In this document: positions 2,035-42,265 of the stretch, in pieces
How positions within the stretch are numbered: position 1 is the stretch's first letter
Layout: every line of letters starts with the position of its first letter
Source: Escherichia phage vB_EcoS_011D5
DNA length: 45,204 bases
Reading direction: 5' to 3' (one strand)
Sequence record: NC_073085.1
The notes under the pieces: generated by a model
Databases searched by the model: none
What the model saw: the letters and a program-made list of their open reading frames with translations, nothing else
What the model was told of the DNA's origin: nothing
Position numbers and translations under genes: made by a program

Positions 2035-4326
2035 TTATTTCCTGTACCTGTACATAATGTCGCCTTCCGCGGCAAGCGGGAAGCCTTTCGCCCAAATAGG
2101 CAGGTCGCACATCAGCGCGCATAGCTCCTCGGTCGTGTAATCGTCAGTATCCGGCACTTCGGTGATCAGTTCATCGTGTACGGACAGTACGATCTCATAT
2201 CCCGCAGCTTCAACGCCCGGCATGGACCATGCGAGGATATCGCGACACAGCGCCTGCACGATGTTTTCCGTGAGTTTTCCGCCGTAGGTGTACTGGGATC
2301 CCCACTGGCGCGTCGTCTGATTCTCACCCTGATATTTAATGCGGGTGCTGGTGCGTTTCTTGCCGGTATCTTCGTCGATCTCGGTCGTCACTGACAGCGC
2401 AATGCCTGGATAACTCATAATACGCCCCGACGGCAACTCAATTTTCAACCACCACCCCGCGGCGTTCGGGTCGTCGCGTTCCTCGTCGAAGGTTGGGTCA
2501 TGCTTCGCCTTCGTGCGGACTATCTTGAGCGCTTTCTTACCATCCGGGCGAACGTTCGCGCCAGCCCAGTACGCTTTGCCAGGATTGCGGATTGCACACA
2601 ACACCGCGTCCTCAAGCTCGGCCCAAAAGGCTACCGTCTTCGGGTGAGCCTCGCGCCACATGCGTTTAATCGCATCACACGTAAGCCATACGTTTTTCGG
2701 CAGTATGTAAGTCGGGCGCTCGTCCTTCTTGCCCGGCTTCGGCGGTCGCTTCGCTTCGTTAATGCGGGCATATTCATAACCACGTTTCGCCGCCGCCCAA
2801 ATGTGATCGGGGAATGTGCCCTTCATCACGTCAGCCATCGCATAAAGGTCGAGGCCCAGGTTTTTAGCGAACTGCAAGAACGCAGCCACGCCGCCGCCGT
2901 AGCCCAGGCCCAACTCACACGCCTTACCAATCTGGCGTAAGTCCTTGCGGTTGGCTTTAATGTATTCCGGGTCAAGGCCAAACATCTTACCGGCAGTTTC
3001 ACAATAAATATCGCGACCGGCCCTAAACACCATGAGCGCTGTTTTCTCGCCAGCGATCCAGGCAAGGCCGCGCCCTTCCACGTTGGAGTAGTCCGCAACG
3101 ACAAACTTCTTGCCCTTCGCCGGAATAATGCACCCGCGAACGGTCGAGGCCGTTAGCTTCGATATGTCATACGCCCAGTGTGCGGTCCCGCGTAACAGGG
3201 AGTTGATGCCGTTGGTGAGCATGTGCGACCGCACCCAAAAAGATATATCGCTCTCGCCCTCGCGGCGCTTAATCTTCCCTTCGTGGTCGTCGCTATACTC
3301 GCCACGCGCCAGGTTTTGCGGCTGGAAGCCTTTACCGGCCCAGCGTAGCGTGCGCTTTGCCCCACCATACTGAAGACAACCACGGCGGCGACCATCGGCG
3401 GACAGGCCATTTACGAGCGGATTGTACTTAGTCGATGCCGTTGATGACGCTCCGAGGCGCATCTCGATAAGCACTTTGCCTTCATCGGGGAAGTCTGGAT
3501 CTTCCAGCAGGTCGTTAAGCGTGGATTTCTGCGCGTTGTGGATTGTGAACGCAGGCGCGAGGTCACGCAGCGCTGGCAGGAAGTCATTGCCGGTCAGCTT
3601 ACCGCCGAAGCGCTCCCATGCTTCTTCCTTCAATTCTTCCTTATGCGCCTGTACCGCTTTGATCGCAGCGCGCGCCAGGTCGACGTCTACATAGAAGCCG
3701 CGGTCATTAATCAACTGGTCAATAAGCAGGATTTCGTCTTCCTTCGGCGTGTTACCCCAGTCCGGTATGCGCCAATAGACTTCACGCATCGCGACAATAT
3801 CCAGCGCAGCATAGCGCAGGAATTTAGCCCACTCCTCTGGGTGCGTCTCGCGCGTGTAGCGTCGGATTTTGTAGGTCCTAGGGGTAGGCTTACAGAATCG
3901 TTTAATCAGCGCCTTGCCTGCCTTATCCTTCGCGTGCTCTGCATCAACGCCCAGCACCTGGCACTGCATATCGAGGCTACCAGGCAACGCGTGTCGGAAG
4001 GCCATAACCATGGTGTCTTCGATCTGGCACACTGGCAAGTCAATACCCCACTTTTCGCGAATAACCAGGCGGTCAAACAGGAGGCCGTTAGCCATCACGA
4101 TTTTTGCTTTCTTGCGGGATACCTGGCGGAGCGCCTTGCGCAGTTCACGCGGCATTGTAGGGGATTCGGTGCAATCCCATGTCTGTACGCGGCCCTCGTC
4201 GATGGCGTAGGTGCAGATCATAATCTCGGTTGTCGGGTGCTCCGCGTAGGCGTATGCGCCCACTTTCTTCAGGTCTACCCCGCTAAATGTCTCGGTATCG
4301 AGAAACAGGCGTTCGAAGTCTTTCAT
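2035..4326 (-). CDS. Family A DNA polymerase with N-terminal 3'-5' exonuclease domain (T7 gp5-like)
   Basis: Exo I FLDTETFS; motif A VVADYSNVEGRGLAWIAGE; motif B RKDLRQIGKACELGLGYGGG; motif C VLSVHDELITEVP; start set at MKDFERLF (ATGA overlap with upstream small ORF). Confidence 0.9.
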   Translation of the reverse strand: MKDFERLFLDTETFSGVDLKKVGAYAYAEHPTTEIMICTYAIDEGRVQTWDCTESPTMPRELRKALRQVSRKKAKIVMANGLLFDRLVIREKWGIDLPVCQIEDTMVMAFRHALPGSLDMQCQVLGVDAEHAKDKAGKALIKRFCKPTPRTYKIRRYTRETHPEEWAKFLRYAALDIVAMREVYWRIPDWGNTPKEDEILLIDQLINDRGFYVDVDLARAAIKAVQAHKEELKEEAWERFGGKLTGNDFLPALRDLAPAFTIHNAQKSTLNDLLEDPDFPDEGKVLIEMRLGASSTASTKYNPLVNGLSADGRRRGCLQYGGAKRTLRWAGKGFQPQNLARGEYSDDHEGKIKRREGESDISFWVRSHMLTNGINSLLRGTAHWAYDISKLTASTVRGCIIPAKGKKFVVADYSNVEGRGLAWIAGEKTALMVFRAGRDIYCETAGKMFGLDPEYIKANRKDLRQIGKACELGLGYGGGVAAFLQFAKNLGLDLYAMADVMKGTFPDHIWAAAKRGYEYARINEAKRPPKPGKKDERPTYILPKNVWLTCDAIKRMWREAHPKTVAFWAELEDAVLCAIRNPGKAYWAGANVRPDGKKALKIVRTKAKHDPTFDEERDDPNAAGWWLKIELPSGRIMSYPGIALSVTTEIDEDTGKKRTSTRIKYQGENQTTRQWGSQYTYGGKLTENIVQALCRDILAWSMPGVEAAGYEIVLSVHDELITEVPDTDDYTTEELCALMCDLPIWAKGFPLAAEGDIMYRYRK

Positions 4327-4493
4327 TGCTGAATCCTCACTACGGCGTCGGCGCTGCCGATCATGGAGAAGATACCGTCGGAAAGGGTAATCTCCCCGCC
4401 GTTGTTGCGAATCTCGGCAACGATGAAATACTCGCCCAGCATTTTGGACCATACTCGCATTCCGACTTTTACTTCGCTGGCTTTAATACGCAT
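4323..4493 (-). CDS. Small hypothetical protein (~56 aa), translationally coupled to the polymerase
   Basis: Read by eye: MRIKASEVKVGMRVWSK...; RBS AGGA upstream; stop overlaps polymerase ATG. Coordinates approximate. Confidence 0.4.
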   Translation of the reverse strand: MRIKASEVKVGMRVWSKMLGEYFIVAEIRNNGGEITLSDGIFSMIGSADAVVRIQQ

Positions 4494-4507
4494 TTTTCAT
4501 TGTCCTA

Positions 4508-4533
4508 TTAAAAAGCCCGCATTAAGCGGGCTT
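4508..4533 (-). terminator. Intrinsic terminator/attenuator after SSB-like gene
   Basis: Hairpin AGCCCGC-atta-GCGGGCT followed by a T-run on the minus strand. Confidence 0.5.
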
Positions 4534-4551
4534 GAATAGTGGGCTTTGCCC

Positions 4552-5337
4552 TTAACGGCGGCGACGTTTACGTGGTGCTTCGTCTTCGTCGTCTTCGTCC
4601 TCATCTTCGTCATCGCGTGGCTTACGACGTTTACGAGGTTTCTCATCTTCGTCGTCTTCGTCGTCATCGCGGCGCTTGGACTTTTTGGACTTGCGCGGCT
4701 TGTCGTCTTCGTCATCGTCATCACGACGTTTTGACTTTTTGGACTTGCGCGGGCTTTCATCTTCGTCATCATCGCCCAGGTCTTCGTCGGAGCAAGAAGA
4801 ACCGCCACCGCCGAAGGATTCACCATCATCGCGGAAGCGAAGACCCAGCAATCCCGCACCGAGGCCTTTACCGTTGGTATTATTCCACGCCCAAATATCC
4901 AGGGACACGTTGCAATAACAACCGGAGTAGATCTCCTGGCCTTCGATCTCGTCGCCTTCTATGGTCAGACCTTGTTCCGTCTGCTTCTCGCCGAGTGACG
5001 TTTGAATGATCGGCTGTTTGAACGATTTGGCGTTGATGTACAACATGCCTTCGAATTCTTCGGTTACTTCGTCGCGCTCGTCACCGTCGCGAACTGCGCA
5101 TTCCTTAGAATCCTGAGCGTAGTGACGGTCCATCCACTTATCAGCATTCTTCTCGGATTTCAGCTTGTCGGTGAGCACTGCGCGCGCTGCCGCTTCCACT
5201 TTGTCCACCTGCGGATCTTCTTTATCAAGAAGAATCACTGCACGGTATGCCGGTTTTTGTCCATCCTGTTTAGGGGTATCACGTTCCCAGATTTTCAGGA
5301 AACATACGCGCACATTTTTCAGGTTGACTTTAGCCAT
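4552..5337 (-). CDS. Putative single-stranded DNA-binding protein with mixed-charge repetitive C-terminal tail
   Basis: N-terminus MAKVNLKNVRV...YRAVILLDKEDP resembles phage SSB N-termini; C-terminal tandem repeats DDDEDE..PRKSKKSKRR; RBS GAGGA. Confidence 0.5.
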   Translation of the reverse strand: MAKVNLKNVRVCFLKIWERDTPKQDGQKPAYRAVILLDKEDPQVDKVEAAARAVLTDKLKSEKNADKWMDRHYAQDSKECAVRDGDERDEVTEEFEGMLYINAKSFKQPIIQTSLGEKQTEQGLTIEGDEIEGQEIYSGCYCNVSLDIWAWNNTNGKGLGAGLLGLRFRDDGESFGGGGSSCSDEDLGDDDEDESPRKSKKSKRRDDDDEDDKPRKSKKSKRRDDDEDDEDEKPRKRRKPRDDEDEDEDDEDEAPRKRRRR

Positions 5338-5427
5338 TTTCCAATTCCTCATTTTCACATGTATCGGGGTTATTATGAGCCACCCCGTTCGGCTTGGTTG
5401 CTAATCTACTTGGTTGCACCTAAGCGG

Positions 5428-5670
5428 TCAAGCACTTTTATTAAAAAGATTTCTGGTCACGTAGTTGGTAGCGTTCTCGACCCAGCTTAACGGCGGTCGG
5501 TCGATGTTCTTCTCCACCCAGTCGACGGCAGCGTCACTATATCCGTCGTCAAGCCAGCGGGTCGGATGGCGAATCATCCACGCCACCATTAACACGCCCT
5601 GCACGCAATGCAGGATAAAGCCCAGCGCGCCGAGCAAAAACATCAATAAGATCGCAAATACTTTACTCAT
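5428..5670 (-). CDS. Small membrane protein (one TM helix)
   Basis: Hydrophobic stretch FAILLMFLLGALGFIL; start overlaps exonuclease stop. Confidence 0.5.
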   Translation of the reverse strand: MSKVFAILLMFLLGALGFILHCVQGVLMVAWMIRHPTRWLDDGYSDAAVDWVEKNIDRPPLSWVENATNYVTRNLFNKSA

Positions 5671-7093
5671 TGCTTAAGTCCTCGTCAGTGGCCTCCGACC
5701 ACGCAGGGCGCGGGTCGTCGATGGGTGCTAATACCGGTTTAGCCGGTGCGCGAGTGATTTTAGCACACAGCTTCGCCCACACTTTCGGTTTTTCGTCCTT
5801 CAGTACCTTCTCGGCATCGGTAGGGCTGAGCAATGTTTCTTTGTACATCACATCGCGCTTGATCCGGGCCTTCGTGAATATTTCAATCACTTCGCTCTCG
5901 TCCGCCCACTTCCGGATCCCTTCCTTACCGGCAACCATCTTGAGGCCCAGCGATTCGCCATCCCCCGCCATTACCGCTTTGAATACCGCGGACTCGATAG
6001 CTTTGATGTGCTGGCGCATTGCGTCCAGACCTTCATACGCCTTGCGCAGTTCCGCCGCGCTCATAGCGCCGGGGGCCGATTCCTTATTGCCACGCTTCGC
6101 ACGTCGGGCTGCCTTCCGGGCTTCGCGGGCCATATTGCGGTCGTGGTTGGCGCATTCTTCCTCTGTCGCAATACTCACGTCATCGCCCAGGTCTTCGTCG
6201 GTTGCCGTCGGTGGGGTCATCGTGTCGATTGCGGCCTTAGCGCGGGCACTACACTGATCCGCAAATCTGCACCACTGGCACGCATCGACGCTGGGCCGGA
6301 AGTCCGCGCGGGTGAGTCCCTTCTTGCCTCGGGAATACGCTTCCAGTGCGGCGATAGCGCGCTTGGATGCAAACTTCGCGAATATCTCCAGGGCTTCTAC
6401 CGAAATATCCCACTCCGACGCCCCACCGCAATACGGCTGGAAGATAACCAGGCGAACGGTCGTAATGTCGTACATGGTTTGCAGCTTGCGCAGCAGGCCT
6501 AGCGCGTACAACATAAGCTGTTTGTTTTCTTTTGCCTCGACCTTATGTCGCCCGGTCTTCAGGTCGCCAACAATCAGCATGTACGTGCCGTCGGTCTTCT
6601 TCATGACCATGACCATATCAGCAGTGCCGAACGTCTTAACCTTGTTGCCGTCGATCTCGAAGCCCGAGTGAAGGACACGGGTAAGATCGGCGCGCATCTC
6701 AAGCTGGACAAACTCCGCCACTTCGAGGAGCGGTCGCCAGTGGTCGATGTATGCATCGCACTGTTTCACCATATCATCATTGACCAGTACGCCGCCTTTC
6801 GGCGCTTTCGGGTGTGCCTTTACTGGCCCCTTTCCTTCGTTCTCGACGTAGCACCCTTTATACGTCTTCGCGGTTATTTTCTTCTCACCGGCGATAATGC
6901 GGTTTAGCAACACTTCAGATACGGTGTGCATACTCGTACCGTTAATCGCGGCTTGCCCGGATTCGTTCGGGATATCTTTTTCCACCACCAGGGCGGCAGG
7001 GCAACCCATCCATTTTTTAGCACCGGACGGTCCGAGTAATGAGTGTTCCGTATTACTACCGGATTGCGTTTTACGTTTTGGTTTAATCGCCAT
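5663..7093 (-). CDS. RecB/Cas4-family PD-(D/E)xK exonuclease with C-terminal Cys cluster
   Basis: N-terminal GPSGAKKWMGCPA; IVGDLKTG...QLMLYALGL (D/ExK and QxxxY); C-terminal CQWCRFADQC. Confidence 0.75.
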   Translation of the reverse strand: MAIKPKRKTQSGSNTEHSLLGPSGAKKWMGCPAALVVEKDIPNESGQAAINGTSMHTVSEVLLNRIIAGEKKITAKTYKGCYVENEGKGPVKAHPKAPKGGVLVNDDMVKQCDAYIDHWRPLLEVAEFVQLEMRADLTRVLHSGFEIDGNKVKTFGTADMVMVMKKTDGTYMLIVGDLKTGRHKVEAKENKQLMLYALGLLRKLQTMYDITTVRLVIFQPYCGGASEWDISVEALEIFAKFASKRAIAALEAYSRGKKGLTRADFRPSVDACQWCRFADQCSARAKAAIDTMTPPTATDEDLGDDVSIATEEECANHDRNMAREARKAARRAKRGNKESAPGAMSAAELRKAYEGLDAMRQHIKAIESAVFKAVMAGDGESLGLKMVAGKEGIRKWADESEVIEIFTKARIKRDVMYKETLLSPTDAEKVLKDEKPKVWAKLCAKITRAPAKPVLAPIDDPRPAWSEATDEDLSNE

Positions 7094-7281
7094 TATTCCA
7101 CCCTTGAAAACTGAGCAATGTAATATTCATGTTTAACACCGGCCCGCTTCGCGGCTTCGTTCATGGTAGCCGCCAAACCTCTGGCTTGAGTCCAGCAGCA
7201 ATTCCAGTTCTGATTCATAACGATTTCGGGTTGCTCATCGCCGGTAATACGGCAGCGAAATAAAACGAAAAATATAGCCAT
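7093..7281 (-). CDS. Hypothetical protein (62 aa)
   Basis: ORF with ATG; start directly follows stop of upstream gene (TAAATG). Confidence 0.4.
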   Translation of the reverse strand: MAIFFVLFRCRITGDEQPEIVMNQNWNCCWTQARGLAATMNEAAKRAGVKHEYYIAQFSRVE

Positions 7282-7533
7282 TTATTTTGTCTCCCAGCGG
7301 TCAATTGTTTTTGCTTCGGATGCAACGGCGAAGCGAACAAATTCCAGATTGGAATCCGCCCAAATATAAAAGTCGGGGTTAGTAAAAGTGGTGCGCTTAA
7401 TTTGCGCGGGTGTGTTGCGGCGTTTGTCTATTACGGCAACGCGGGACTGAAAATTGCCGATGCGTTCGAATAGCCAATAATATGGGCGCTGGTCGCGGGA
7501 GTCCACCGCCTCGATTAGCGTGAAACGTGCCAT
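7282..7533 (-). CDS. Hypothetical protein (83 aa)
   Basis: ORF-track, ATG start, operon context. Confidence 0.45.
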   Translation of the reverse strand: MARFTLIEAVDSRDQRPYYWLFERIGNFQSRVAVIDKRRNTPAQIKRTTFTNPDFYIWADSNLEFVRFAVASEAKTIDRWETK

Positions 7534-7544
7534 TGTCTCGTCCT

Positions 7545-7573
7545 CTAAAAAGAGGCCCGCAGATTAGCGGGCC
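7545..7573 (-). terminator. Intrinsic terminator-like hairpin
   Basis: GGCCCGC-agatta-GCGGGCC followed by a T-run on the minus strand. Confidence 0.45.
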
Positions 7574-7581
7574 GGATAATA

Positions 7582-7707
7582 TTAGTCTTCTCCGCCGAGT
7601 TGTTTATAAACTTCGTCCGGGTCGTCGCCTCTTTCTTCGCAGAAGGCGGTGAATGCCGCCCAGTTTTCTGCTATGAAATCGAGCGTGATTCTCATTTCAT
7701 AGTCCAT
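7582..7707 (-). CDS. Small acidic hypothetical protein (~41 aa)
   Basis: Read by eye: MDYEMRITLDFIAENWAAFTAFCEERGDDPDEVYKQLGGED; not in ORF track (<60 aa). Confidence 0.35.
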   Translation of the reverse strand: MDYEMRITLDFIAENWAAFTAFCEERGDDPDEVYKQLGGED

Positions 7708-7711
7708 GATA

Positions 7712-8221
7712 TTAGTCTTCCAGTTCGAAATAGGTTTCGACGATTTCTTTCAGATCTTTGTGGAAATCTTCCACGTCGTCATCTTCCAGCTTGGCGATTG
7801 ATTTGATCTCGAACGCTTCCAGCAGGTCGTCAAATTCGTCGTTCGCATCGTCATCATCACCGCCTGCGATAATCGCGGCATACTGTTTGATTTCGTCGCG
7901 CATCTCTGCCAGCGGGTCGGCATCTTTCTTACCTTTGCCTTTCGCTGGTGCTTTTTTACCCTTCGCCGGTTTTTCGTCTTCGGCTTCATCGTCGTCATCT
8001 TCTACGACTTCTTTTTTGGCCTTACCTTTCGCCGTGGCTTTTTTACCTTTCGCCGGTGCTTCGTCTTCAGCGTCGTCATCTTCTACGACTTCTTTTTTGG
8101 CCTTAGCTGGCTTTTTATCTTCCTGCTTACCAACGGCAGCGCCCACGGTTTCATAATGTTTTGCGATGATTTCCAGTGCTACTACGCCGCGAGTGATCAG
8201 GTTTACGATTTGCTCAAACAT
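7712..8221 (-). CDS. Acidic early protein with tandem KKEVVEDDD-AEDE-PAKGKKA-AKGK repeats; first gene of the leftward operon
   Basis: ORF-track 7712..8449 trimmed to MFEQIVNL; RBS GGAGA; ~84 bp tandem DNA repeat at ~7970-8140; acidic C-terminus DEFDDLLEAF...EDDDVEDF. Confidence 0.6.
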   Translation of the reverse strand: MFEQIVNLITRGVVALEIIAKHYETVGAAVGKQEDKKPAKAKKEVVEDDDAEDEAPAKGKKATAKGKAKKEVVEDDDDEAEDEKPAKGKKAPAKGKGKKDADPLAEMRDEIKQYAAIIAGGDDDDANDEFDDLLEAFEIKSIAKLEDDDVEDFHKDLKEIVETYFELED

Positions 8222-8456
8222 GGTGTATCTCCGATTGGTTAAGTTTAGGTGTCGACCATTAACTTCGTCGGTGGCCTTAACATAGTGCCCGGTTGCGCGT
8301 TCTCCCTTTCGGGTAGTGGACCGGGTTATATAATCACGGTTGGGAATCCTGACACTTCGATCCGGCCCCTGCGTTGCCCCTCTCCAGTTTGCTTCCTGCA
8401 TCCTGTCGACGAGGTGAATATTAGATTGGTTGCAGAAGGGAGTCAACAACTAATTT

Positions 8457-8491
8457 AAAAAAAAAGCGCCGAAGCAAAATGCGACGGCGCT
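8457..8491 (-). terminator. Intrinsic terminator-like hairpin in the divergent early control region
   Basis: AGCGCCG...CGGCGCT hairpin followed by a T9 run on the minus strand. Confidence 0.5.
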
Positions 8492-8561
8492 AACCAATAA
8501 GAGACAATGAGACGGGAATTATTATTACACGCGTGCGCGCCCGTTTCAATATCCAAAGGAT

Positions 8562-8590
8562 TTGACACCGTGCAGTTTTGGGTGTAGTTT
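8562..8590 (+). promoter_or_regulatory. Sigma70-like rightward early promoter
   Basis: TTGACA - 17 nt - TAGTTT, ~30 nt upstream of the 8622 gene. Confidence 0.5.
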
Positions 8591-8621
8591 CGTTGGTCAT
8601 TAGCCAACAGGAGACTGAATT

Positions 8622-8951
8622 ATGAATATCAAAGAAGCAATTGAAGTGTTATCTAATGCAATCCGCGGCGAAGCGGGTAAATCCTGGTATTACACAAATG
8701 CGGTGGATACTCTGTTATTTGAAGTGTCCAGATTATCGCGTGCTGAGAAGGAGCTTACCGCGAAGCTGGAATTACTCAACGGCACGGCAGCAAGCAAGCT
8801 GCAAAAGCACAATGAAGAAATGGAAGAATACAAAAAACAGGTTATCCGTTTGCGCGCCGAGGGCAAATCCTGGGCAATGATCGCTGAGTTGACAGGAATT
8901 AATCAGAGCACCGTGCGCTCCTGGGTACGCAATAATAAAACTTCGAAGTAA
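8622..8951 (+). CDS. HTH DNA-binding protein (putative early transcriptional regulator)
   Basis: C-terminal HTH-like SWAMIAELTGINQSTVRSWV; first gene of the rightward operon. Confidence 0.6.
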   Translation: MNIKEAIEVLSNAIRGEAGKSWYYTNAVDTLLFEVSRLSRAEKELTAKLELLNGTAASKLQKHNEEMEEYKKQVIRLRAEGKSWAMIAELTGINQSTVRSWVRNNKTSK

Positions 8952-8961
8952 GGCAACGGCA

Positions 8962-11226
8962 ATGAGCTTAATTAAATTCGCGGTAACACGACCCGCTAAA
9001 AAAGGCGAAAAAGCCAGGGCGGAAAACTTCCAGATGACCACCGATGAATTTTTCGAATTTATCAATGACGCGAAAGAAATCTCCTCGGTGCATATCAACA
9101 AGACGGAAGATAAAGCCGAGTATGCGCGCCGCAAGCGTAAGGCCGATGGCATCGTAGCTTATACCAGTGACGGCCTGCGCCGCAAGACCAGTGCGGTGGA
9201 CCGCTCGATCCTGTTCTTCGATATTGACCGCACCGACACTCGCACCCTACGCCGCTGCCGTAAGGCTTTCATCGACGCGGGGCTGGAGCACGTATTCCAC
9301 ACAACCACCGGCGACCGCCACCCGCTGAAAGGCGGCACGCGTTGCGCCCGTTTCCTGGTACTCACTGACAAGCCTGTACCGGCGGAAGACCTGGGCCGTG
9401 TCCAGTATGCGCTATTACACCAACTTGGCCTGTCAGATGTGGACTTCGACGATTGCACGAAAGACACAAACCGCCTGATGTACCTGCCGCACCAGCAGTC
9501 TGTCATTAAGTGTCACTACGGCAAACGTGCCCGCGTCCGTCGTCTGCTCCGCCTGGCGGATACGCTTGGCGTGGAGAAGGAAGAAGTACGCCGCGAGCTT
9601 ACCCAGGGCGACGACGCAGTGGCAGACGGCATTCTGGACTGGTGCTTCCAGGCAGGATTCGAGGAGTTATCTTCCGGTCGCGGTTATGAAGTGCCGTGCC
9701 CGAACGAACATCTGCACAGCGGCGAAGGGTCGACGGCTATCATGGTCAAGGATGGCGAGATCCGTTTCAAGTGTATGCACACCGGAAACGAGTGTTGCTC
9801 GGAGCTAAATAGACACCAGCACCTGGCGCTACGTCTTATCGGGATACCGGACCACCTGAACGTCGAGCCGCACAACATGTCACGTAAGCAAATCGCCGCC
9901 ATCCTCCCAGGGCTGGACGACGAGGAAGTCGAATCCTTATATGAACATATTGTTGATGCGGTTGGCGACGGCGAAGAATACGGCGTGTGCACCGATGCGG
10001 ATCTGGATAACGAGCCGGTCGCACTATTCAGTAAGCACGACCCGATCATCGAAGGGCTGATTAACTTTAAATCGACCTGGTATATGGCGGGCGAGTCGAA
10101 TATAGGTAAGTCCTTCTACGTGCTGGGGCAGATGGGCGCGGTTGCCGCGGGTATCCCGTTTGGCGGTGCGAAGGTCGTCCAGTCTCATTGCTTCTATTTC
10201 GACGCGGAAGGTGGCGAAGCCTCCAACCAGCGTAAAGAAGCATTGCAGATTAAATATGAGCACGACCTGGACAAGCTGCACATTATAGACCTGCAGTCCC
10301 GCGGCTGGGATATCACCAGCAAGTCCGGTTTGCGCGAAGTTATCAGTTTTATCAACCGCACCGCTAACGGCGAACCGGTTGGCCTGGTGGCGTTCGACTC
10401 ACTCAACCAGACTGTTGCGCTGCGGTCCGCCGATGCTAAACCGTTTGACGAGAACAACGCCAGCGATATGGGTGAAGTGGTCAAAGCGCTGAAAGCCATT
10501 GCGGAAAACACAGGTGGCAGTGCGGGCGTCATCCACCACCCGGCGAAGGGTGCAAACGGCAGCAGATCTCCCCGTGGGTCCGGCGCACTGCATGGCGCTG
10601 TCGATTCTGCGTTCTTCCTGGAACAGCCGGACGACAACCAGCCGGGACAACTCAACCTGTATCACGAAAAATCACGTAACGGCATCAAGCAAGCGCCGCG
10701 TGGCTTCGTCCTGCTCAAGTGCAAGGTGAAGGTGGATCTCCGCAAGTCAGAAGCGTTCGCGTCGCACCAGTCCACCAGCACCGGGCCAGACTTCGGCGAC
10801 GTTGTTGCCGGTTGGGACGTCAAACCAATTGCATCCACGCCACGCGATGAGACTCTGTACCTCGTACCGGTCGCCCTGGCACCGTTCGCTATAGAACAGG
10901 CGAAGGCGGCGGGCAAAGCCGCAGTTAAGGAAGAGAACACCGCCGGTCCGCGCAACGAAAAAGAGAAAGTGCTTTATGCGGCCCTGGAAAAACTGATGGA
11001 AGATAACCCGAGCCACACTGGATTCAGTAAATCGGCAATTGTCCGCCAGGCGGGACTCGCGAAGGGAGGCACTTCGACGAAGGCAATCGACGATATGGTC
11101 GAGCGCGGCGTGATTGGTTTTTATACAGACCCGCACACCGGGGCCATCTATGGGTCGTCGAATTTGGTCATCAAATCGGATATTCCCATAACGCTTTCGG
11201 CGACCGATGATGACCTGAAAGATTAA
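8962..11226 (+). CDS. Bifunctional primase/helicase (AEP-type prim-pol N-domain, zinc-binding linker, RecA/DnaB-like ATPase)
   Basis: ILFFDIDR...FHTTTGDRH (AEP motifs); CPNEHLHS...CMHTGNECC; Walker A GESNIGKS; Walker B VAFDSLNQ. Confidence 0.8.
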   Translation: MSLIKFAVTRPAKKGEKARAENFQMTTDEFFEFINDAKEISSVHINKTEDKAEYARRKRKADGIVAYTSDGLRRKTSAVDRSILFFDIDRTDTRTLRRCRKAFIDAGLEHVFHTTTGDRHPLKGGTRCARFLVLTDKPVPAEDLGRVQYALLHQLGLSDVDFDDCTKDTNRLMYLPHQQSVIKCHYGKRARVRRLLRLADTLGVEKEEVRRELTQGDDAVADGILDWCFQAGFEELSSGRGYEVPCPNEHLHSGEGSTAIMVKDGEIRFKCMHTGNECCSELNRHQHLALRLIGIPDHLNVEPHNMSRKQIAAILPGLDDEEVESLYEHIVDAVGDGEEYGVCTDADLDNEPVALFSKHDPIIEGLINFKSTWYMAGESNIGKSFYVLGQMGAVAAGIPFGGAKVVQSHCFYFDAEGGEASNQRKEALQIKYEHDLDKLHIIDLQSRGWDITSKSGLREVISFINRTANGEPVGLVAFDSLNQTVALRSADAKPFDENNASDMGEVVKALKAIAENTGGSAGVIHHPAKGANGSRSPRGSGALHGAVDSAFFLEQPDDNQPGQLNLYHEKSRNGIKQAPRGFVLLKCKVKVDLRKSEAFASHQSTSTGPDFGDVVAGWDVKPIASTPRDETLYLVPVALAPFAIEQAKAAGKAAVKEENTAGPRNEKEKVLYAALEKLMEDNPSHTGFSKSAIVRQAGLAKGGTSTKAIDDMVERGVIGFYTDPHTGAIYGSSNLVIKSDIPITLSATDDDLKD

Positions 11227-11319
11227 ATTTTGCGCGCATTGGTTGCCATTTTGAGTGTTTTTAGCTGGTCGCATTGGTTGCCGTGTGGTGTAAATATAGT
11301 GAATAGTTATGCAATAAAA

Positions 11320-11490
11320 CTGCATAAAGTAAGCGGGACAAAAAGCGGGACAGACCAGGGGCGGGACAAAGCGGGACAGCACCCCTGTCCCACCCCGGAT
11401 GACGCGGCCTGGCGGGGAGCGGGACAGGCGGGACAAACCCCAGTCTTTCAGACTAGACGGGGGTCAGTTGGCCCCCTCGTCTGAGACTGC
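11320..11490 (+). repeat. Composite repeat element copy A: 6 direct GCGGGACA(R) units, an inverted TGTCCC and a conserved GC hairpin block
   Basis: Direct reading; ~85-90 percent identical to 28560-28730. Confidence 0.85.
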
Positions 11491-11705
11491 ATAAAATCCG
11501 GGATTGCATAATACACGGCAGCATATTGGAAATCGCGGTCGTCGCTGAACTAGGCAACCAATGCGAGTTGCAGAATGGTGGGTGGGGAATGCAGTTTGCA
11601 GTTACAGCAGATAGCGATCAACTTTTTCATGCGCATGATTAATATTGGTTGCATTCGTGCCAGCACCCTGCTAGATTGGTTGCACACCAACAAGAGGACT
11701 GAACA

Positions 11706-12032
11706 ATGAAAAAATTAATCTGGAATTACGCAATGGCTATGGCGAAGGCACAAGAAGCGGCGGAGTTCGCCGGTGAGGGGGTGGAAGCAGTAGAAAGACT
11801 ATCGGCAGCGTGGGCCGTTGTGCGGGTGATGCGGCGGGCCATCGCCGTTATGCTTGAGCGCCGCTTCGACACGATGGAAGAGATCCAGCCACTGGCGAAC
11901 GCCATCCAGGACTACGCGCTTGCATTCTCCCGTGAGCGCCTGGCGTATCGCTTCGGGATCGGTGAGACGGCAGTGACAAACGTCGCCCGGATTAAAGCAC
12001 AGCGCGAACTATTTGCCCAGCTTGCGAAATAA
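11706..12032 (+). CDS. Hypothetical protein (108 aa)
   Basis: ATG with RBS AGAGGA; TTGGTTGCA motifs upstream. Confidence 0.55.
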   Translation: MKKLIWNYAMAMAKAQEAAEFAGEGVEAVERLSAAWAVVRVMRRAIAVMLERRFDTMEEIQPLANAIQDYALAFSRERLAYRFGIGETAVTNVARIKAQRELFAQLAK

Positions 12033-12040
12033 GGGCCAAA

Positions 12041-12310
12041 ATGGTCCGCAGACGAGCTAAACAGCTTTCGTGGCATATTCCACTGCATTGTATACGCATA
12101 TGGGCTAAGAATGCGACTGAGGGCGATTCTGTGTTCTGGAGCTATCGCGACGATGTGAAGCCGTTGACGCAGACACGCTACTTGCACCAGTTCGCAGCAA
12201 AACACGATTTCAGGGTGCGGACCTCCTTGCAACCAATGGGAATCCGTATTACATTACGCCGGAAGCCCGCCGTTGAGCGGGTAGGCAAACACTGGAGACT
12301 AAGCAAATGA
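12041..12310 (+). CDS. Hypothetical protein (89 aa)
   Basis: ORF-track; operon context. Confidence 0.45.
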   Translation: MVRRRAKQLSWHIPLHCIRIWAKNATEGDSVFWSYRDDVKPLTQTRYLHQFAAKHDFRVRTSLQPMGIRITLRRKPAVERVGKHWRLSK

Positions 12311-12459
12311 CCAAAGTCGAGAGTAAGGCCACCGGTCTGATCTATCTTGTGGTGTGGGAGGGGAACGGGTGTGTTACGCTCATGTACCCAAAAACAAAAG
12401 AGCGCCACACTATCAGCCAATTTACCCTGAACAAAAACTACAGGAGACTGAGCAAATGA
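12307..12459 (+). CDS. Small hypothetical protein (~50 aa)
   Basis: Read by eye: MTKVESKATGLIYLVVWEGNG...; ATGA overlaps on both sides. Confidence 0.35.
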   Translation: MTKVESKATGLIYLVVWEGNGCVTLMYPKTKERHTISQFTLNKNYRRLSK

Positions 12460-13073
12460 AATTACTATTCCGCCGCAAATCGGACGGCAAAATACTTAGA
12501 CCAATACAGACCCTTTCCGCCTACGTGCGCCTACACCACGCCGCAAGCGATCGTGTCTGGTGGGCAACAAAAGCTAAACTTCCGGAGAAATACGATATTG
12601 TCACGCATGATATTGAGCGCGGCGATGTGCTGCGTGATATTCGCGACGGCAGTATGTGGATCGTCGAGTATGTCGGGCTTCATGGCCTGCGTATGCAAAA
12701 CCGCAAGGATGGCGTCGCCGGTATGACTTACTTCGGCCTTGTCAACTACGAGCGAGTAGGCCGCAAATACTGCATTCGTGACCGCCAGCCGCATGAGCGA
12801 TCGAGCGCCATAGCGGACGCAGTTAACCGCGTAACGCATGACGTGGCGCAGAAGACGCGTGTGGAGTTCCGCAAGTCGCAGCCCGCCTACGCGACCTACG
12901 ACTCCCACCAGGTGCAAGCGAAGATGGGCAACGCAGTACGCCAAATCGTCAATCGCTTTGATGCCGTGACGAACGCACAGCGCCATGCGCAGGAGTATGG
13001 CGTTGGATTCATCCGGGTGGAACGAGACGGCAGCGTGAAAGCCATCGACCCGCGCTCGGTGATTCTGAAATGA
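12456..13073 (+). CDS. Hypothetical protein (~206 aa)
   Basis: ORF-track 12354..13073 trimmed to MKLLFRRK with RBS CAGGAGA. Confidence 0.55.
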   Translation: MKLLFRRKSDGKILRPIQTLSAYVRLHHAASDRVWWATKAKLPEKYDIVTHDIERGDVLRDIRDGSMWIVEYVGLHGLRMQNRKDGVAGMTYFGLVNYERVGRKYCIRDRQPHERSSAIADAVNRVTHDVAQKTRVEFRKSQPAYATYDSHQVQAKMGNAVRQIVNRFDAVTNAQRHAQEYGVGFIRVERDGSVKAIDPRSVILK

Positions 13074-41730: not shown

Positions 41731-41794
41731 AGTATTACCCTTTTTAGTGAGGGGGCTTTATTGCCCCCGACACGTTTAATATAGTGCAACCAAC

Positions 41795-42265
41795 CTATTG
41801 GTTGCAAGTGAATTTTGCAACGTTTATTGCGTAAATTTTCGGGACCAAATCACCACACGCCCGACGAATTGCCGCGATGTTCTTCTCGCAATCTTCAATG
41901 ATGACCAGTTCCGACACGTCCGCATAGCAGACCATTTTGAACACGGCGCACGCCTTAAACTCTGGCGGCGGGGTGTCGTCCAGCATGTGGCGCATAAACA
42001 ACCGGCCTACCGGGAAGACCTCCAATTGCTCGGCGGTGGTGTCCCAGCATTCTCGCTGCCGGTTGGTCAGATACGCGATCTCGAAGCCTCGCTCTTTGTA
42101 CATGCGCAGCAACGGCAGCATATCCATATTCAGGTCTTCGCGTACGTGCGCCTTGTGCCACTTCGCCCAAAAGGTGGATTTAGTTTTTATACCAGGCACC
42201 AGGTCGGCGCGCGCATCGCTTGAACCGTTAATAACTCCATCCAAATCGCAAATCAGTAATTTCAT
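41795..42265 (-). CDS. HAD-superfamily phosphatase / nucleotidase-like
   Basis: Motif I LICDLDGVI; motif II YLTNR; C-terminal acidic motif IIEDCEKN. Confidence 0.7.
   Translation of the reverse strand: MKLLICDLDGVINGSSDARADLVPGIKTKSTFWAKWHKAHVREDLNMDMLPLLRMYKERGFEIAYLTNRQRECWDTTAEQLEVFPVGRLFMRHMLDDTPPPEFKACAVFKMVCYADVSELVIIEDCEKNIAAIRRACGDLVPKIYAINVAKFTCNQ

What the first reader, a model, noticed from the sequence alone, without database searches (positions are those of the whole stretch)
8223..8621. 400 bp divergent early control region with a promoter, a minus-strand terminator and a TTGGTTGCA site
This region separates the leftward and rightward early operons. It contains a sigma70-like promoter (TTGACA-17-TAGTTT at 8562-8590), a strong minus-strand hairpin plus T9 (8457-8491) located upstream of the first leftward gene, and a TTGGTTGCA motif at ~8426. 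A terminator upstream of the first leftward gene hints at attenuation of leftward transcription or a short antisense or leader RNA.
Basis: seen in the sequence. Interest (0 to 1): 0.4.

Follow-up and report, generated by a model that had tools for sequence, protein, structure and literature searches.

The report
New structured leader RNA in coliphages
The 400-bp stretch is a real divergent early promoter region of a Dhillonvirus coliphage, and 40% of it encodes a conserved, intricately folded 160-nt RNA at the start of the leftward early transcript that matches no catalogued RNA family and whose function is unknown.

Summary
The window is a Dhillonvirus (HK578-like) coliphage genome. They are conserved across the genus, and relatives' GenBank records already annotate the promoters and the terminator. 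TTGGTTGCA is one of 13 exact copies in the genome (0.38 expected).

The layout is fuller than described. P_R points rightward. P_L1 and the T9 terminator define a ~55-nt RNA. A second leftward promoter, P_L2, carries the motif in its spacer.

Window 8410..8251, minus strand, is a ~160-nt leader RNA with eight helices and two three-way junctions. On a hand-built alignment of 33 distinct sequences, 90% of cells pair (31-41% in slid controls) and 23 pairs change on both sides.

The RNA occurs in about 170 phage records: Dhillonvirus, several Drexlerviridae genera, Jilinvirus, Sortsnevirus and Murrayvirus. It is always intergenic and co-oriented with its neighbours, and starts at the predicted transcription start. 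The genes downstream are unrelated. Some close relatives lack it.

There is no Rfam 15 match and no copy in E. coli genomes or plasmids. I read it as a cis-acting, mobile 5' leader module of unknown effector. A trans-acting decoy RNA or an antiterminator remain possible.

The parts
8562..8590 (+). P_R: rightward sigma70-type promoter, TTGACA (8562-8567), 17-nt spacer, TAGTTT (8585-8590). Predicted start about 8597.
   Evidence: Sequence. Hexamers are conserved and the spacer varies in 16 Dhillonvirus variants. Annotated as a promoter in the HK578 record. The -10 is only 3 of 6, and there is no TSS data.
8592..8608 (.). Inverted repeat GTTGG-N7-CCAAC over the predicted +1 of P_R. Operator-like, with half-sites related to the AACCAA core of the genome-wide motif.
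   Evidence: Sequence. RTTGGYTR is enriched in the window, 26 against 10.5 expected. The operator function is inferred.
8610..8624 (+). SD GGAGA (8610-8614) and ATG (8622) of the first rightward gene, a 109-aa protein with a C-terminal HTH.
   Evidence: Pfam HTH_23, Sigma70_r4_2 and HTH_28 all above cut-off.
8521..8549 (-). P_L1: leftward promoter, TTGAAA (8549..8544), 17-nt spacer, AATAAT (8526..8521), with TG at 8529..8528. Predicted start about 8513.
   Evidence: Best promoter match in the region, 10 of 12 with an upstream TG. Nearly invariant in 16 variants. Annotated in HK578.
8459..8513 (-). Predicted ~55-nt RNA: a 22-nt single-stranded 5' part, GUCUCAUUGUCUCUUAUUGGUUA, followed by the terminator hairpin.
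   Evidence: Promoter plus terminator geometry. The 5' part is invariant across Dhillonvirus. It is complementary to both flanking translation-initiation regions, though not uniquely. Expression is untested.
8457..8490 (-). Intrinsic terminator: stem 8490..8485 with 8471..8466, inner GC pairs, then U9 (8465..8457).
   Evidence: Fold -16.2 kcal/mol, z -3.75. Conserved, with a U-run of 9-14. Annotated as a terminator in CS16 and WF5505.
8418..8446 (-). P_L2: leftward promoter, TTGACT (8446..8441), 17-nt spacer, TAATAT (8423..8418). Predicted start 8411/8410.
   Evidence: 9 of 12. Conserved. Annotated in HK578.
8426..8434 (-). One of 13 exact genomic copies; presumed binding site of a phage regulator.
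   Evidence: 13 copies against 0.38 expected. Contexts are mostly intergenic, several directly 5' of a -10-like hexamer, some paired or palindromic. The binding protein is unknown.
8251..8410 (-). Structured 5' leader RNA, about 160 nt. Helices:
- P1 8410-8405 with 8256-8251
- P2 hairpin 8404-8386 (GGA loop 8396-8394)
- P3 8380-8376 with 8275-8270
- P8 8374-8372 with 8338-8336
- P4 hairpin 8369-8342
- P7 8331-8327 with 8284-8280
- P5 8325-8320 with 8293-8288
- P6 hairpin 8316-8302

Invariant joiners: GGAGA 8385-8381, AACGC 8301-8297, GACGAAG 8269-8263.
   Evidence: Coordinates. Covariation. CM R1 hit 8416..8245, 161.5 bits, E 2e-39, and the only hit in the window. Homologues in several other phage genera and families.
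8219..8250 (-). A/C-rich unstructured linker ACCUAAACUUAACCAAUC (8250..8233), SD GGAGA (8232..8228) and ATG (8221..8219) of the first leftward gene (169 aa, phrog_3127, function unknown).
   Evidence: Similar AC-rich linkers containing UUAAC follow the RNA in other lineages.

Best explanation
Window 8222-8621 is the divergent early control region of a Dhillonvirus.

**Layout**
- Rightward: P_R (8562-8590) drives a small HTH protein and the helicase-primase operon.
- Leftward, first unit: P_L1 (8549..8521) runs into an intrinsic terminator (8490..8457) and should give a ~55-nt RNA.
- Leftward, second unit: P_L2 (8446..8418) carries the genome-wide TGCAACCAA site in its spacer and starts the early leftward mRNA at about 8411/8410.

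**The leader RNA**
- The first ~160 nt of that mRNA (8410..8251) fold into a conserved RNA. P1 closes the 5' end. P2 is a hairpin with a GGA loop. P3 encloses a second three-way junction that carries P8-P4 and P7-P5-P6.
- An unstructured A/C-rich linker, the Shine-Dalgarno sequence and the start codon follow.

**How I think it works (inferred)**
- It is a cis-acting, self-contained 5' leader module. It sits between resident early promoters and unrelated first genes.
- It acts at the RNA level on the transcript it heads, as an aptamer-like platform for a conserved host factor or small ligand that sets the stability, translation or regulation of that transcript.

**Shown:** the fold, the strand, the conservation, the 5'-terminal position relative to predicted promoters, and the horizontal distribution with presence/absence polymorphism.

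**Inferred:** transcription start sites, cis action, and the nature of the partner.
For: **Structure**
- On hand-built alignment A3 (33 distinct sequences, 47 pairs), 90.4% of cells pair, against 31-41% when partners are slid. 23 pairs change on both sides, against 5-8 slid. The covariation score is 0.368 against 0.02-0.07 slid, and 0 of 500 shuffles reach it.
- P5 has 3-5 pair types at most positions and is 96% paired. P6, P7, P3 and P1 also covary.
- P5 also shows compensatory changes within the genus: CCCGG/CCGGG, CCAGG/CCTGG and CCTGG/CCAGG.

**Strand**
- Invariant or frequent G-U pairs exist only on the minus strand (53-74, 55-70 and 59-66).
- All sampled contexts have flanking genes co-oriented with it.

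**5'-terminal position**
- A -10 hexamer ends 5-9 nt (mode 7) before the P1 region in 33 of 35 distinct upstream contexts.

**Cis coupling**
- A start codon follows about 28-35 nt after P1 in most lineages, by hand count on the sequences.
- Similar AC-rich linkers lie in between.

**Independence from the downstream gene**
- The first genes in 10 contexts hit seven different PHROGs or none. The next genes also differ.

**Accessory and mobile character**
- WF5505 has the same promoter and the same first gene without the RNA.
- Tonnikala has the same promoter as XY3 but only a P1-like 5' hairpin.

**Single copy and restricted distribution**
- CM R1 finds exactly one hit per phage locus at 139-162 bits, and none in WF5505 or in the chance pattern matches.
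- No copy in 5,426 E. coli genomes or 72,556 plasmids.

**Not coding**
- Motto has stops in all six frames. XY3 and PHB17 have stops in all three sense frames.
Against: - There is no experimental TSS, 3' end or expression data.
- Thermodynamic folding alone does not single out the structure. The window z-score is -0.8, and the consensus fold lies 10-20 kcal/mol above the nearest-neighbour MFE.
- Alignment A3 was built by hand, and the registers of P1 and P5 were chosen to maximise pairing. That inflates the paired fraction somewhat.
- P8 and much of P4 never vary, so covariation says nothing about them.
- The family has only about 6-8 independent lineages.
- No expression platform is visible: no terminator/antiterminator pair and no helix sequestering the SD. 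That argues against a classical riboswitch.
- Element-less relatives carry the same promoter directly upstream of the same gene, so any cis role is dispensable.
- A 5'-terminal RNA with its own promoter could equally be cut off and act in trans.
Confidence: 0.5

Rival explanations
1. The ~160-nt domain is a trans-acting stable ncRNA. It is made from P_L2, released from the mRNA by cleavage in the AU/AC-rich linker, and acts as a decoy or inhibitor of a host factor. Candidates are an anti-phage defence component, or CsrA through the P2 hairpin loop.
For: - Accessory presence/absence pattern in two genera.
- Horizontal spread among unrelated lytic phages, in early regions full of small unknown genes.
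- No tie to any downstream gene family.
- About 60 invariant nucleotides, which suggests a conserved host partner.
- The P2 loop reads CAGGA(U/C/A)G in the Dhillon and Arya-type lineages. That is the CsrB repeat consensus as I recall it; this was not tested.
Against: - No terminator or other defined 3' end follows the element in most lineages.
- It is always directly upstream of, and co-oriented with, an ORF at a fairly constant distance. A free-standing RNA gene would not need that.
- Only one GGA lies in a hairpin loop.
- There is no evidence of processing.
Confidence: 0.25
2. The leader is an RNA-only processive antiterminator, working like HK022 put or the Bacillus EAR element. It would modify the RNA polymerase that transcribes it, so that the long early operon reads through internal terminators.
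For: - Promoter-proximal, orientation-fixed and gene-independent, at the head of early operons.
- The window has a strong intrinsic terminator inside the leftward operon at 7573..7554, with 7 GC pairs and a T-run.
Against: - No comparable minus-strand terminators within about 2.5 kb downstream in Arya or XY3.
- WF5505 lacks the RNA but keeps the internal terminator.
- The size and fold are unlike put, which as I recall has two stem-loops and is about 70 nt.
- No sequence match to EAR in Rfam.
Confidence: 0.1
3. One reading: leftward expression is governed mainly by attenuation at the 8490..8457 terminator, or by the short RNA it defines. The rest of the gap would be spacer.
For: - P_L1 is the best promoter match in the region, and the terminator is strong and conserved.
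- The 5' part of the ~55-nt RNA is invariant.
- It is complementary to both flanking initiation regions. The rightward one ranks 4th and the leftward one 6th of 65 genes. Shuffle p is about 0.02 for each. The inverted repeat is 14 nt at 86%.
Against: - P_L2 lies downstream of the terminator and is conserved, so leftward genes do not depend on read-through.
- The complementarity is not unique. The seed is anti-SD-like and pairs with many SDs.
- The shared AACCAAT core can equally be a set of DNA operators of the genome-wide motif.
- The rest of the gap is demonstrably a conserved RNA, not spacer.
Confidence: 0.12
4. The conserved block is not an RNA. It would be a small protein-coding gene or an N-terminal extension of the leftward gene, a DNA-level element such as an origin or operators, or a MITE-like insertion.
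For: - In the Dhillon lineage the frame in phase with the leftward gene is open through the block. ORF 7712..8449 is 245 aa, and that frame has zero stops.
- Several GenBank records place hypothetical ORFs there.
- P1 looks like terminal inverted repeats.
Against: - Stops in all sense frames in XY3, PHB17 and Motto, and in all six frames in Motto.
- Indels of 1-2 nt occur between lineages.
- Substitutions are compensatory for pairing rather than synonymous.
- G-U pairs are strand-specific.
- There is one copy per genome, always in one orientation. The flanking 19-nt direct repeat is also present in element-less WF5505, so it is not a target-site duplication.
Confidence: 0.03

Closest known systems
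HK022 putL/putR antiterminator RNAs (own knowledge: King, Sen, Weisberg and colleagues)
   Same: A cis-acting RNA element just downstream of phage early promoters. It is independent of the identity of the downstream genes, needs a fixed orientation, and is found in coliphages.
   Different: put is about 70 nt with two stem-loops. This RNA is about 160 nt with eight helices and two three-way junctions. There is no sequence similarity: blastn found only the ~170-190 records listed, and HK022 is not among them. Downstream terminators are not a consistent feature. Function is untested.
Riboswitch aptamers and orphan riboswitch candidates (Rfam)
   Same: A complex, covariation-supported fold with highly conserved junction nucleotides in a 5' UTR. 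It starts at the transcription start and is followed by the SD and AUG.
   Different: No Rfam 15 family matches at E<=10 in three lineages. No expression platform is visible. Downstream genes are functionally unrelated small phage ORFs. It occurs only in lytic phages, never in bacterial chromosomes.
5'-terminal stabiliser stem-loops such as the ompA 5' UTR (own knowledge: Emory, Bouvet and Belasco 1992)
   Same: P1 closes the RNA within about 0-3 nt of the predicted 5' end. Element-less tonnikala keeps a simple 5' hairpin at the same place.
   Different: A stabiliser needs only a terminal hairpin. It does not explain about 60 invariant nucleotides and six further helices.
CsrB/CsrC-type CsrA-binding hairpins (own knowledge: repeat CAGGA(U/C/A)G in hairpin loops)
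   Same: The P2 loop is CAGGAUG, CAGGACG or CAGGAAG in the Dhillon and Arya-type lineages, and AAGGAU in the others. GGA is invariant.
   Different: There is only one such hairpin, against 13-22 in CsrC and CsrB. The rest of the fold is unrelated. Binding was not tested.
Phage antisense or immunity RNAs (P1/P7 C4, lambda OOP, P22 sar), for the ~55-nt RNA (own knowledge)
   Same: A short RNA with its own promoter and intrinsic terminator in the control region. It has a single-stranded seed complementary to ribosome-binding regions of adjacent genes.
   Different: No Rfam match beyond chance: the best are STnc480 at 22 bits against a threshold of 72, and ncS54 at 18 against 43. Complementarity is not unique, and the same core may be a DNA operator.

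Membership tests
Intrinsic (Rho-independent) terminator | G+C-rich hairpin immediately followed by a U-tract on the transcribed strand | tested here: met
   6 G-C pairs plus inner pairs, then U9. -16.2 kcal/mol, z -3.75.
Intrinsic (Rho-independent) terminator | Lies downstream of a co-oriented promoter or gene, and is conserved | tested here: met
   P_L1 lies about 22 nt upstream. Conserved in 16 variants with a U-run of 9-14. Actual termination is not testable here.
Sigma70-type promoter (P_R, P_L1, P_L2) | -35 and -10 hexamers spaced 16-18 nt apart | tested here: met
   P_R 9 of 12 (6 + 3) by direct reading. P_L1 10 of 12 with TG, and P_L2 9 of 12. As raw matches these are not above chance (5 against 2.8 expected).
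Sigma70-type promoter (P_R, P_L1, P_L2) | Hexamers conserved while the spacer drifts; a mapped transcription start | tested here: inconclusive
   The conservation pattern fits. Start sites cannot be mapped with these tools.
Riboswitch | Conserved aptamer fold supported by covariation, located in a 5' UTR | tested here: met
Riboswitch | Expression platform: a terminator/antiterminator pair or SD-sequestering alternative pairing | tested here: not met
   No hairpin with a U-run between P1 and the AUG in any lineage, and no segment complementary to the SD, by inspection of the sequences. The only alternative pairing is extended P1 against lower P2, which does not touch the SD.
Riboswitch | Association with functionally coherent genes | tested here: not met
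   Ten different downstream proteins hit seven different PHROGs or none, all of unknown function.
Riboswitch | Specific ligand binding | not testable with these tools
   Needs in-line probing or ITC.
Any Rfam 15 family | Covariance-model match | tested here: not met
   No hit at E<=10 over the element in the window, Arya or XY3 with the most permissive filters.
put/EAR-type processive antiterminator RNA | Promoter-proximal cis element in the operon it controls | tested here: met
put/EAR-type processive antiterminator RNA | Terminators downstream that must be read through | tested here: inconclusive
   Present in the window (7573..7554). Absent within about 2.5 kb in Arya and XY3. The terminator is kept in element-less WF5505.
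put/EAR-type processive antiterminator RNA | The family's own fold or sequence | tested here: not met
   No EAR match in Rfam. The architecture differs from the two-stem put (own knowledge).
CsrA-binding RNA | GGA in hairpin loops, A(N)GGA or CAGGA(U/C/A)G | tested here: met
   In the P2 loop, GGA and the preceding A are invariant in 33 sequences.
CsrA-binding RNA | Several such sites, or a second site at the SD within bridging distance; actual CsrA binding | tested here: inconclusive
   Two more GGA motifs (J2/3 and the P4 stem) are not in loops. The SD lies about 150 nt away in sequence. Binding is not testable here.
Trans- or cis-antisense sRNA (the ~55-nt RNA) | Own promoter plus terminator; single-stranded seed complementary to a target initiation region | tested here: inconclusive
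   The geometry fits. Targets rank 4th and 6th of 65, p about 0.02 each, but the pairing is not unique and no covariation is available because the seed is invariant.
Protein-coding gene | Open frame conserved across homologues | tested here: not met
   Stops in all sense frames in three lineages.
MITE-like mobile element | Multiple copies, either orientation, target-site duplication | tested here: not met
   One copy per genome and a fixed orientation. The flanking direct repeat is also present without the element.

The most novel reading that the evidence does not exclude
The leader is a new class of ligand- or factor-sensing RNA, or a ribozyme, carried by lytic coliphages as a portable 5' cassette. 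It would let early accessory genes respond to a host state or an immune signal such as a nucleotide second messenger. In the trans reading it would be an RNA anti-defence decoy. Either would be a new functional RNA class, directly testable in E. coli K-12 with phages of the BASEL collection that carry it (for example Oekolampad, KarlBarth, JohannBuxtorf_Bas84, HeidiAbel_Bas97), using natural relatives that lack it, such as WF5505 and tonnikala, as comparators.
Probability: 0.2. Interest if true: 0.9.

Novelty: new variant of a known kind. Interest (0 to 1): 0.6.

Why it matters
**Why the RNA is worth following**
- Complex, covariation-supported RNAs with dozens of invariant junction nucleotides are rare. 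In the past they have repeatedly turned out to be riboswitches, ribozymes or protein-sequestering RNAs.
- This one sits in well-used model coliphages. These include Dhillonvirus and T1-like phages, among them BASEL collection members and the SECphi phages.
- It has natural deletion variants in otherwise near-identical genomes.
- It occupies a defined position at the 5' end of an early sigma70 transcript. Its function can therefore be tested directly with reporters, phage recombineering and RNA probing.

**Practical consequences for annotation**
- Several GenBank records place hypothetical ORFs over this RNA.
- The neighbouring HTH gene is annotated as a Gam-like nuclease inhibitor, which Pfam does not support.

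The promoter, terminator and motif observation itself is ordinary and already annotated in relatives.

Tried and rejected
**Known RNA families and literature**
- Rfam at E<=10 on three lineages found nothing over the element. Only weak chance hits fell on the terminator.
- ARAGORN found no tRNA or tmRNA in the window.
- Literature searches by topic and by literal sequence strings found no description. The single ACCGACGAAG hit was an unrelated umuDC spacer.
- The first 200 of 408 supplementary files of the human-microbiome structured-RNA catalogue had no match.

**Structure prediction without manual alignment**
- RNAalifold on the raw MAFFT alignment recovered P3, P4, P6 and P8 but missed P1, P2, P5 and P7. 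It also proposed a spurious 28-156 pair, because variable stems were misaligned. I replaced it with an anchored manual alignment.
- Single-sequence folding gave z = -0.8 and is not informative.

**Searches for more distant members**
- Degenerate patterns on viral, genome and metagenome collections returned the same lineages plus chance hits (L037, L039, L040, L042, L045, L061, L064 and others). These lack the other blocks or are rejected by the CM.
- No copies in E. coli genomes or plasmids.

**Alternative identities**
- Coding potential, including an N-terminal extension from the in-frame AUG at 8401: rejected. That AUG has no SD upstream and lies 10 nt from the start.
- MITE with target-site duplication: rejected.
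- Association with a particular protein family downstream: none.
- Kissing interaction between the terminator loop and P2 (repeat I4): rejected. The two variable positions do not covary across variants.

**Left unresolved**
- The sRNA-to-initiation-region pairing is kept only as a lead, because the seed pairs with many SDs.
- boxA-like reading of the linker (own knowledge of the boxA consensus): the GCUCUU part is missing, so it is not pursued.
- The extended-P1 alternative pairs as well as lower P2.
Full report
**What the window is.**
The window has the length and gene coordinates of Escherichia phage vB_EcoS_L-h 1M, OM262540.1 (genus Dhillonvirus, HK578-like siphophages). The stored copy of that record differs from the window by scattered substitutions and Ns. 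Over the finding, the window is closest to phage SD276 at 99.5%.

The gap 8222-8621 separates two operons:
- A leftward operon begins with CDS 7712-8221. Its product is 169 aa, phrog_3127, of unknown function.
- A rightward operon begins with CDS 8622-8951, followed by the helicase-primase gene.

**Checking the observation.**

- *P_R.* TTGACA-17-TAGTTT lies at 8562-8590. Its -10 is only 3 of 6, so the consensus scan did not list it, and promoter-like matches in the area are not above chance (5 against 2.8). Across 16 distinct Dhillonvirus variants the -35 is invariant, the -10 changes only in HK578 (to TAGTAT), and the spacer drifts. The HK578 record annotates a promoter there.
- *Hairpin.* The stem 8466-8471/8485-8490 plus A9 (8457-8465) gives a minus-strand hairpin with U9. 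It folds at -16.2 kcal/mol, z = -3.75. It is annotated as a terminator in the CS16 and WF5505 records.
- *Motif.* TTGGTTGCA (8426-8434) is one of 13 exact copies in the genome against 0.38 expected. Most copies are intergenic. Several lie directly 5' of a -10-like hexamer, and some are tandem or palindromic. The motif is genuine and genome-wide, presumably a regulator's binding site.

**Fuller layout of the control region.**
Two conserved minus-strand promoters exist, and both are annotated in HK578.

- P_L1 is TTGAAA 8549..8544, a 17-nt spacer, then AATAAT 8526..8521, with TG at 8529..8528.
- P_L2 is TTGACT 8446..8441, a 17-nt spacer, then TAATAT 8423..8418.
- P_L1 is back-to-back with P_R and lies upstream of the terminator, so it should give a ~55-nt RNA (8513..~8459). 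That RNA has a 22-nt single-stranded 5' part and the terminator hairpin. The stretch is the most conserved part of the whole gap, with no substitution in the 5' part in 16 variants.
- P_L2 lies downstream of the terminator and carries TGCAACCAA in its spacer. The leftward genes therefore do not depend on read-through of the terminator.

**The main content: a structured leader RNA.**
blastn with the gap showed that the sub-segment ~8239-8399 has homologues in other phage groups:
- Warwickvirus, Hanrivervirus, Changchunvirus and other Drexlerviridae;
- Jilinvirus, Sortsnevirus and Murrayvirus;
- several unclassified phages.

This comes to about 170 records. In every context sampled the element lies in a gap of roughly 200-270 nt between genes, apart from a few small or overlapping annotated ORFs. 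It lies inside a gene cluster that is co-oriented with the window's minus strand.

A -10 hexamer ends 5-9 nt (mode 7) before the first helix in 33 of 35 distinct upstream contexts. The RNA therefore begins essentially at the predicted transcription start.

About 28-35 nt after the last helix comes the start codon of the next gene, by hand count. An A/C-rich linker precedes it and often contains UUAAC.

The downstream genes are unrelated. Ten proteins hit seven different PHROGs or none, all of unknown function. The following genes also differ.

**Structure.**
MAFFT plus RNAalifold found only part of the fold, because variable stems were misaligned. I rebuilt the alignment by anchoring on invariant blocks. 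It went in as alignment A3, with 33 distinct rows and N standing for gaps. MAFFT kept all 177 columns.

The model has eight helices:
- P1 joins the two ends.
- P2 is a hairpin with an invariant GGA loop.
- P3 (GGRGC with GCY-A-CC) closes a second three-way junction.
- That junction carries P8-P4 (a long, nearly invariant hairpin) and P7-P5-P6.

Results on A3:
- 90.4% of cells pair, against 31-41% when partners are slid by 1-3 columns.
- 23 pairs change on both sides, against 5-8 slid.
- The covariation score is 0.368, against 0.02-0.07 slid. No shuffle out of 500 reaches it.
- P5 has 3-5 pair types at most positions. P6, P7 (inner 3 bp), P3 and P1 covary.
- P8 and much of P4 never vary, so covariation neither supports nor contradicts them.

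Compensatory changes in P5 occur even within Dhillonvirus.

Frequent G-U pairs (53-74, 55-70, 59-66) fix the minus strand as the functional one and point to RNA rather than DNA.

A covariance model built from A3 finds exactly one hit per phage locus (139-162 bits). The window hit is 8416..8245, at 161.5 bits and E 2e-39. It finds nothing in element-less WF5505 or in the chance pattern matches.

The block is not coding. Motto has stops in all six frames, and XY3 and PHB17 have stops in all sense frames.

Caveats:
- The registers of P1 and P5 were chosen to maximise pairing.
- Only about 6-8 independent lineages exist.
- The consensus fold lies 10-20 kcal/mol above the nearest-neighbour MFE, and the single-sequence z-score is -0.8.
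- An extension of P1 by three pairs competes with the lower part of P2 and pairs about as well. This is unresolved.

**Presence/absence polymorphism.**
- WF5505, a Dhillonvirus, has the same P_L2, linker, SD and first gene, but about 135 nt of the leader are replaced by a short unstructured stretch.
- In Warwickvirus, tonnikala is identical to XY3 up to the -10 box. It then has only a 7-bp 5' hairpin whose arms and linker resemble the ends of the Arya-type element, followed by the gene that is second in XY3. XY3 thus carries an extra cassette of RNA plus a 60-aa gene.

The exchanged unit is therefore the transcribed leader, not the promoter. The RNA is dispensable for having the operon at all.

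**Is it known?**
- No Rfam 15 family matches at E<=10 in three lineages.
- No tRNA or tmRNA is present.
- No copy exists in 5,426 complete E. coli genomes or 72,556 plasmids.
- In one genome per species of GTDB, the only true match is a phage contig labelled as a MAG.
- Topic and literal-sequence searches of the paper library found no description.

Within the limits of these resources the RNA is undescribed.

**How it most likely works.**
*Shown:* a conserved complex fold; a 5'-terminal position behind sigma70-type promoters of early operons; fixed orientation and near-constant spacing to the next start codon; independence from the identity of that gene; an accessory, horizontally exchanged distribution restricted to lytic enterobacterial siphophages.

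*Inferred:* it is a portable cis-acting leader module. Its conserved junctions bind a conserved host factor or small ligand, and that sets the fate of the transcript it heads.

I put this at about 0.5. The spacing and orientation argue for cis action. The absence of any expression platform, together with dispensability, argues against a classical riboswitch.

Rivals:
- A trans-acting decoy released from the mRNA, about 0.25. The accessory pattern and the many invariant nucleotides support it. The P2 loop equals the CsrB repeat CAGGA(U/C/A)G, from my own knowledge.
- A put/EAR-like antiterminator, about 0.1. The window has an internal terminator at 7573..7554, but Arya and XY3 show none within 2.5 kb, and WF5505 keeps the terminator without the RNA.
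- A non-RNA explanation, about 0.03.

**The ~55-nt RNA and the AACCAAT copies.**
The RNA's seed GUCUCUUAUUGGUUAGC is complementary to both flanking initiation regions:
- leftward, UUAACCAAUCGGAGAU;
- rightward, UUAGCCAACAGGAGAC.

Supporting numbers: the inverted repeat is 14 nt at 86%. The rightward and leftward regions rank 4th and 6th of 65 genes. Shuffle p is about 0.02 for each.

The pairing is not unique, and the seed never varies, so covariation cannot test it. The same AACCAA core belongs to the genome-wide TGCAACCAA motif, so these copies may be DNA operators instead. I keep this as a lead.

**Verdict.**

Noticed in passing
window, 13 sites: 5410, 8426, 11645, 11676, 12228, 15007, 22822, 22836, 38923, 41785, 41798, 43694, 43711: TGCAACCAA/TTGGTTGCA is a genome-wide motif with 13 exact copies against 0.38 expected. 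Most copies are intergenic. Several lie directly 5' of a -10-like hexamer (TGCAACCAA-TATACT, -TATGAT, g-TAGATT, tc-TAATAT). It also occurs in tandem pairs and as a perfect palindrome at 41785-41806. It looks like the operator or promoter element of a phage regulator.
   Followed up: partly
window 8622-8951 (+): The gene annotated 'DNA recombination nuclease inhibitor (gamma)' in many records, and 'resolvase' or 'transposase' in others, matches only HTH families: HTH_23, Sigma70_r4_2 and HTH_28 over residues 65-105. It is more likely the early transcription regulator, and a candidate binder of the TGCAACCAA sites.
   Followed up: partly
window 8459-8513 (-) against 8228-8245 (-) and 8600-8616 (+): The single-stranded 5' part of the predicted ~55-nt RNA is complementary to the ribosome-binding regions of both divergent first genes. 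The + strand at 8490-8505 looks like a degenerate copy of the rightward initiation region. The pairing is suggestive but not unique.
   Followed up: partly
window 8222-8240 and 8413-8431: A 19-nt direct repeat, 79% identical, brackets the leader: AACCAATC-GGAGAT-ACACC at the leftward gene start and AACCAATC-TAATAT-TCACC at the P_L2 core. Both copies are also present in element-less WF5505, so it is not a target-site duplication.
   Followed up: yes
window 7554-7573 (-): A strong intrinsic terminator-like hairpin with 7 G-C pairs and a T-run lies inside the leftward operon after its second gene. It is also annotated in WF5505.
   Followed up: partly
window 7991-8008 and 8072-8089, within CDS 7712-8221: An 81-bp-spaced internal repeat occurs in the first leftward gene. 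Its product has repeated KKPAKGKK... and EVVEDDD... blocks and is very acidic and lysine-rich. It has no Pfam hit and falls in phrog_3127.
   Followed up: no
window 4100-12750 against L001 (OM262540.1): The stored GenBank copy with identical coordinates differs from the window at 501 of 8651 positions, including Ns. The differences include the P_L2 hexamers: the record has TTGACA and TATCAT, the window TTGACT and TAATAT. The window is therefore not literally that record.
   Followed up: partly
L066 (phage tonnikala) about 380-480, against L003 (XY3): Tonnikala has the same promoter as XY3 but only a 7-bp 5' hairpin. Its arms and linker resemble the ends of the Arya-type element, as if the interior had been deleted. 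XY3 carries RNA plus an extra 60-aa gene as a cassette.
   Followed up: yes
L005, L006, L032-L034 (upstream of the RNA); L003, L010, L031, L035: The promoters in front of the RNA carry lineage-specific palindromes. Jilinvirus-type phages have TTTAC-N4-GTAAA between the -35 and -10 positions. Drexlerviridae and Murrayvirus have TAGCAC-N5-TG(C/T)TA about 30 nt upstream of the -10. The RNA therefore sits behind differently regulated resident promoters.
   Followed up: no
L005, L032 and L033, just 3' of the RNA: HeidiAbel, PT1 and MQ-4 have an extra G+C-rich hairpin between the RNA and the next start codon, with no U-run. In HeidiAbel and PT1, two mutually exclusive hairpins are possible, one of which would cover the SD (GGUGA).
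   Followed up: no
records MG065648 (Campylobacter phage A144), OQ221563 (Acinetobacter phage NJ01), ON843697 (Pseudomonas phage Motto); L038 (contig QFQS01000013.1, 'Cereibacter sphaeroides' MAG): The first three records carry Dhillonvirus- or Drexlerviridae-type sequence under unexpected host labels. The MAG contig carries an IME279 (Sortsnevirus)-type copy of the RNA. These are probably contaminant or mislabelled entries.
   Followed up: no
GenBank records SD276, Oekolampad, KarlBarth, SO-1 (gp46), PT1 (CDS 2474-2680 of L032), HeidiAbel (Bas97_0052): Hypothetical ORFs are annotated over the RNA element, on either strand depending on the record. They are inconsistent between lineages and likely spurious.
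   Followed up: partly
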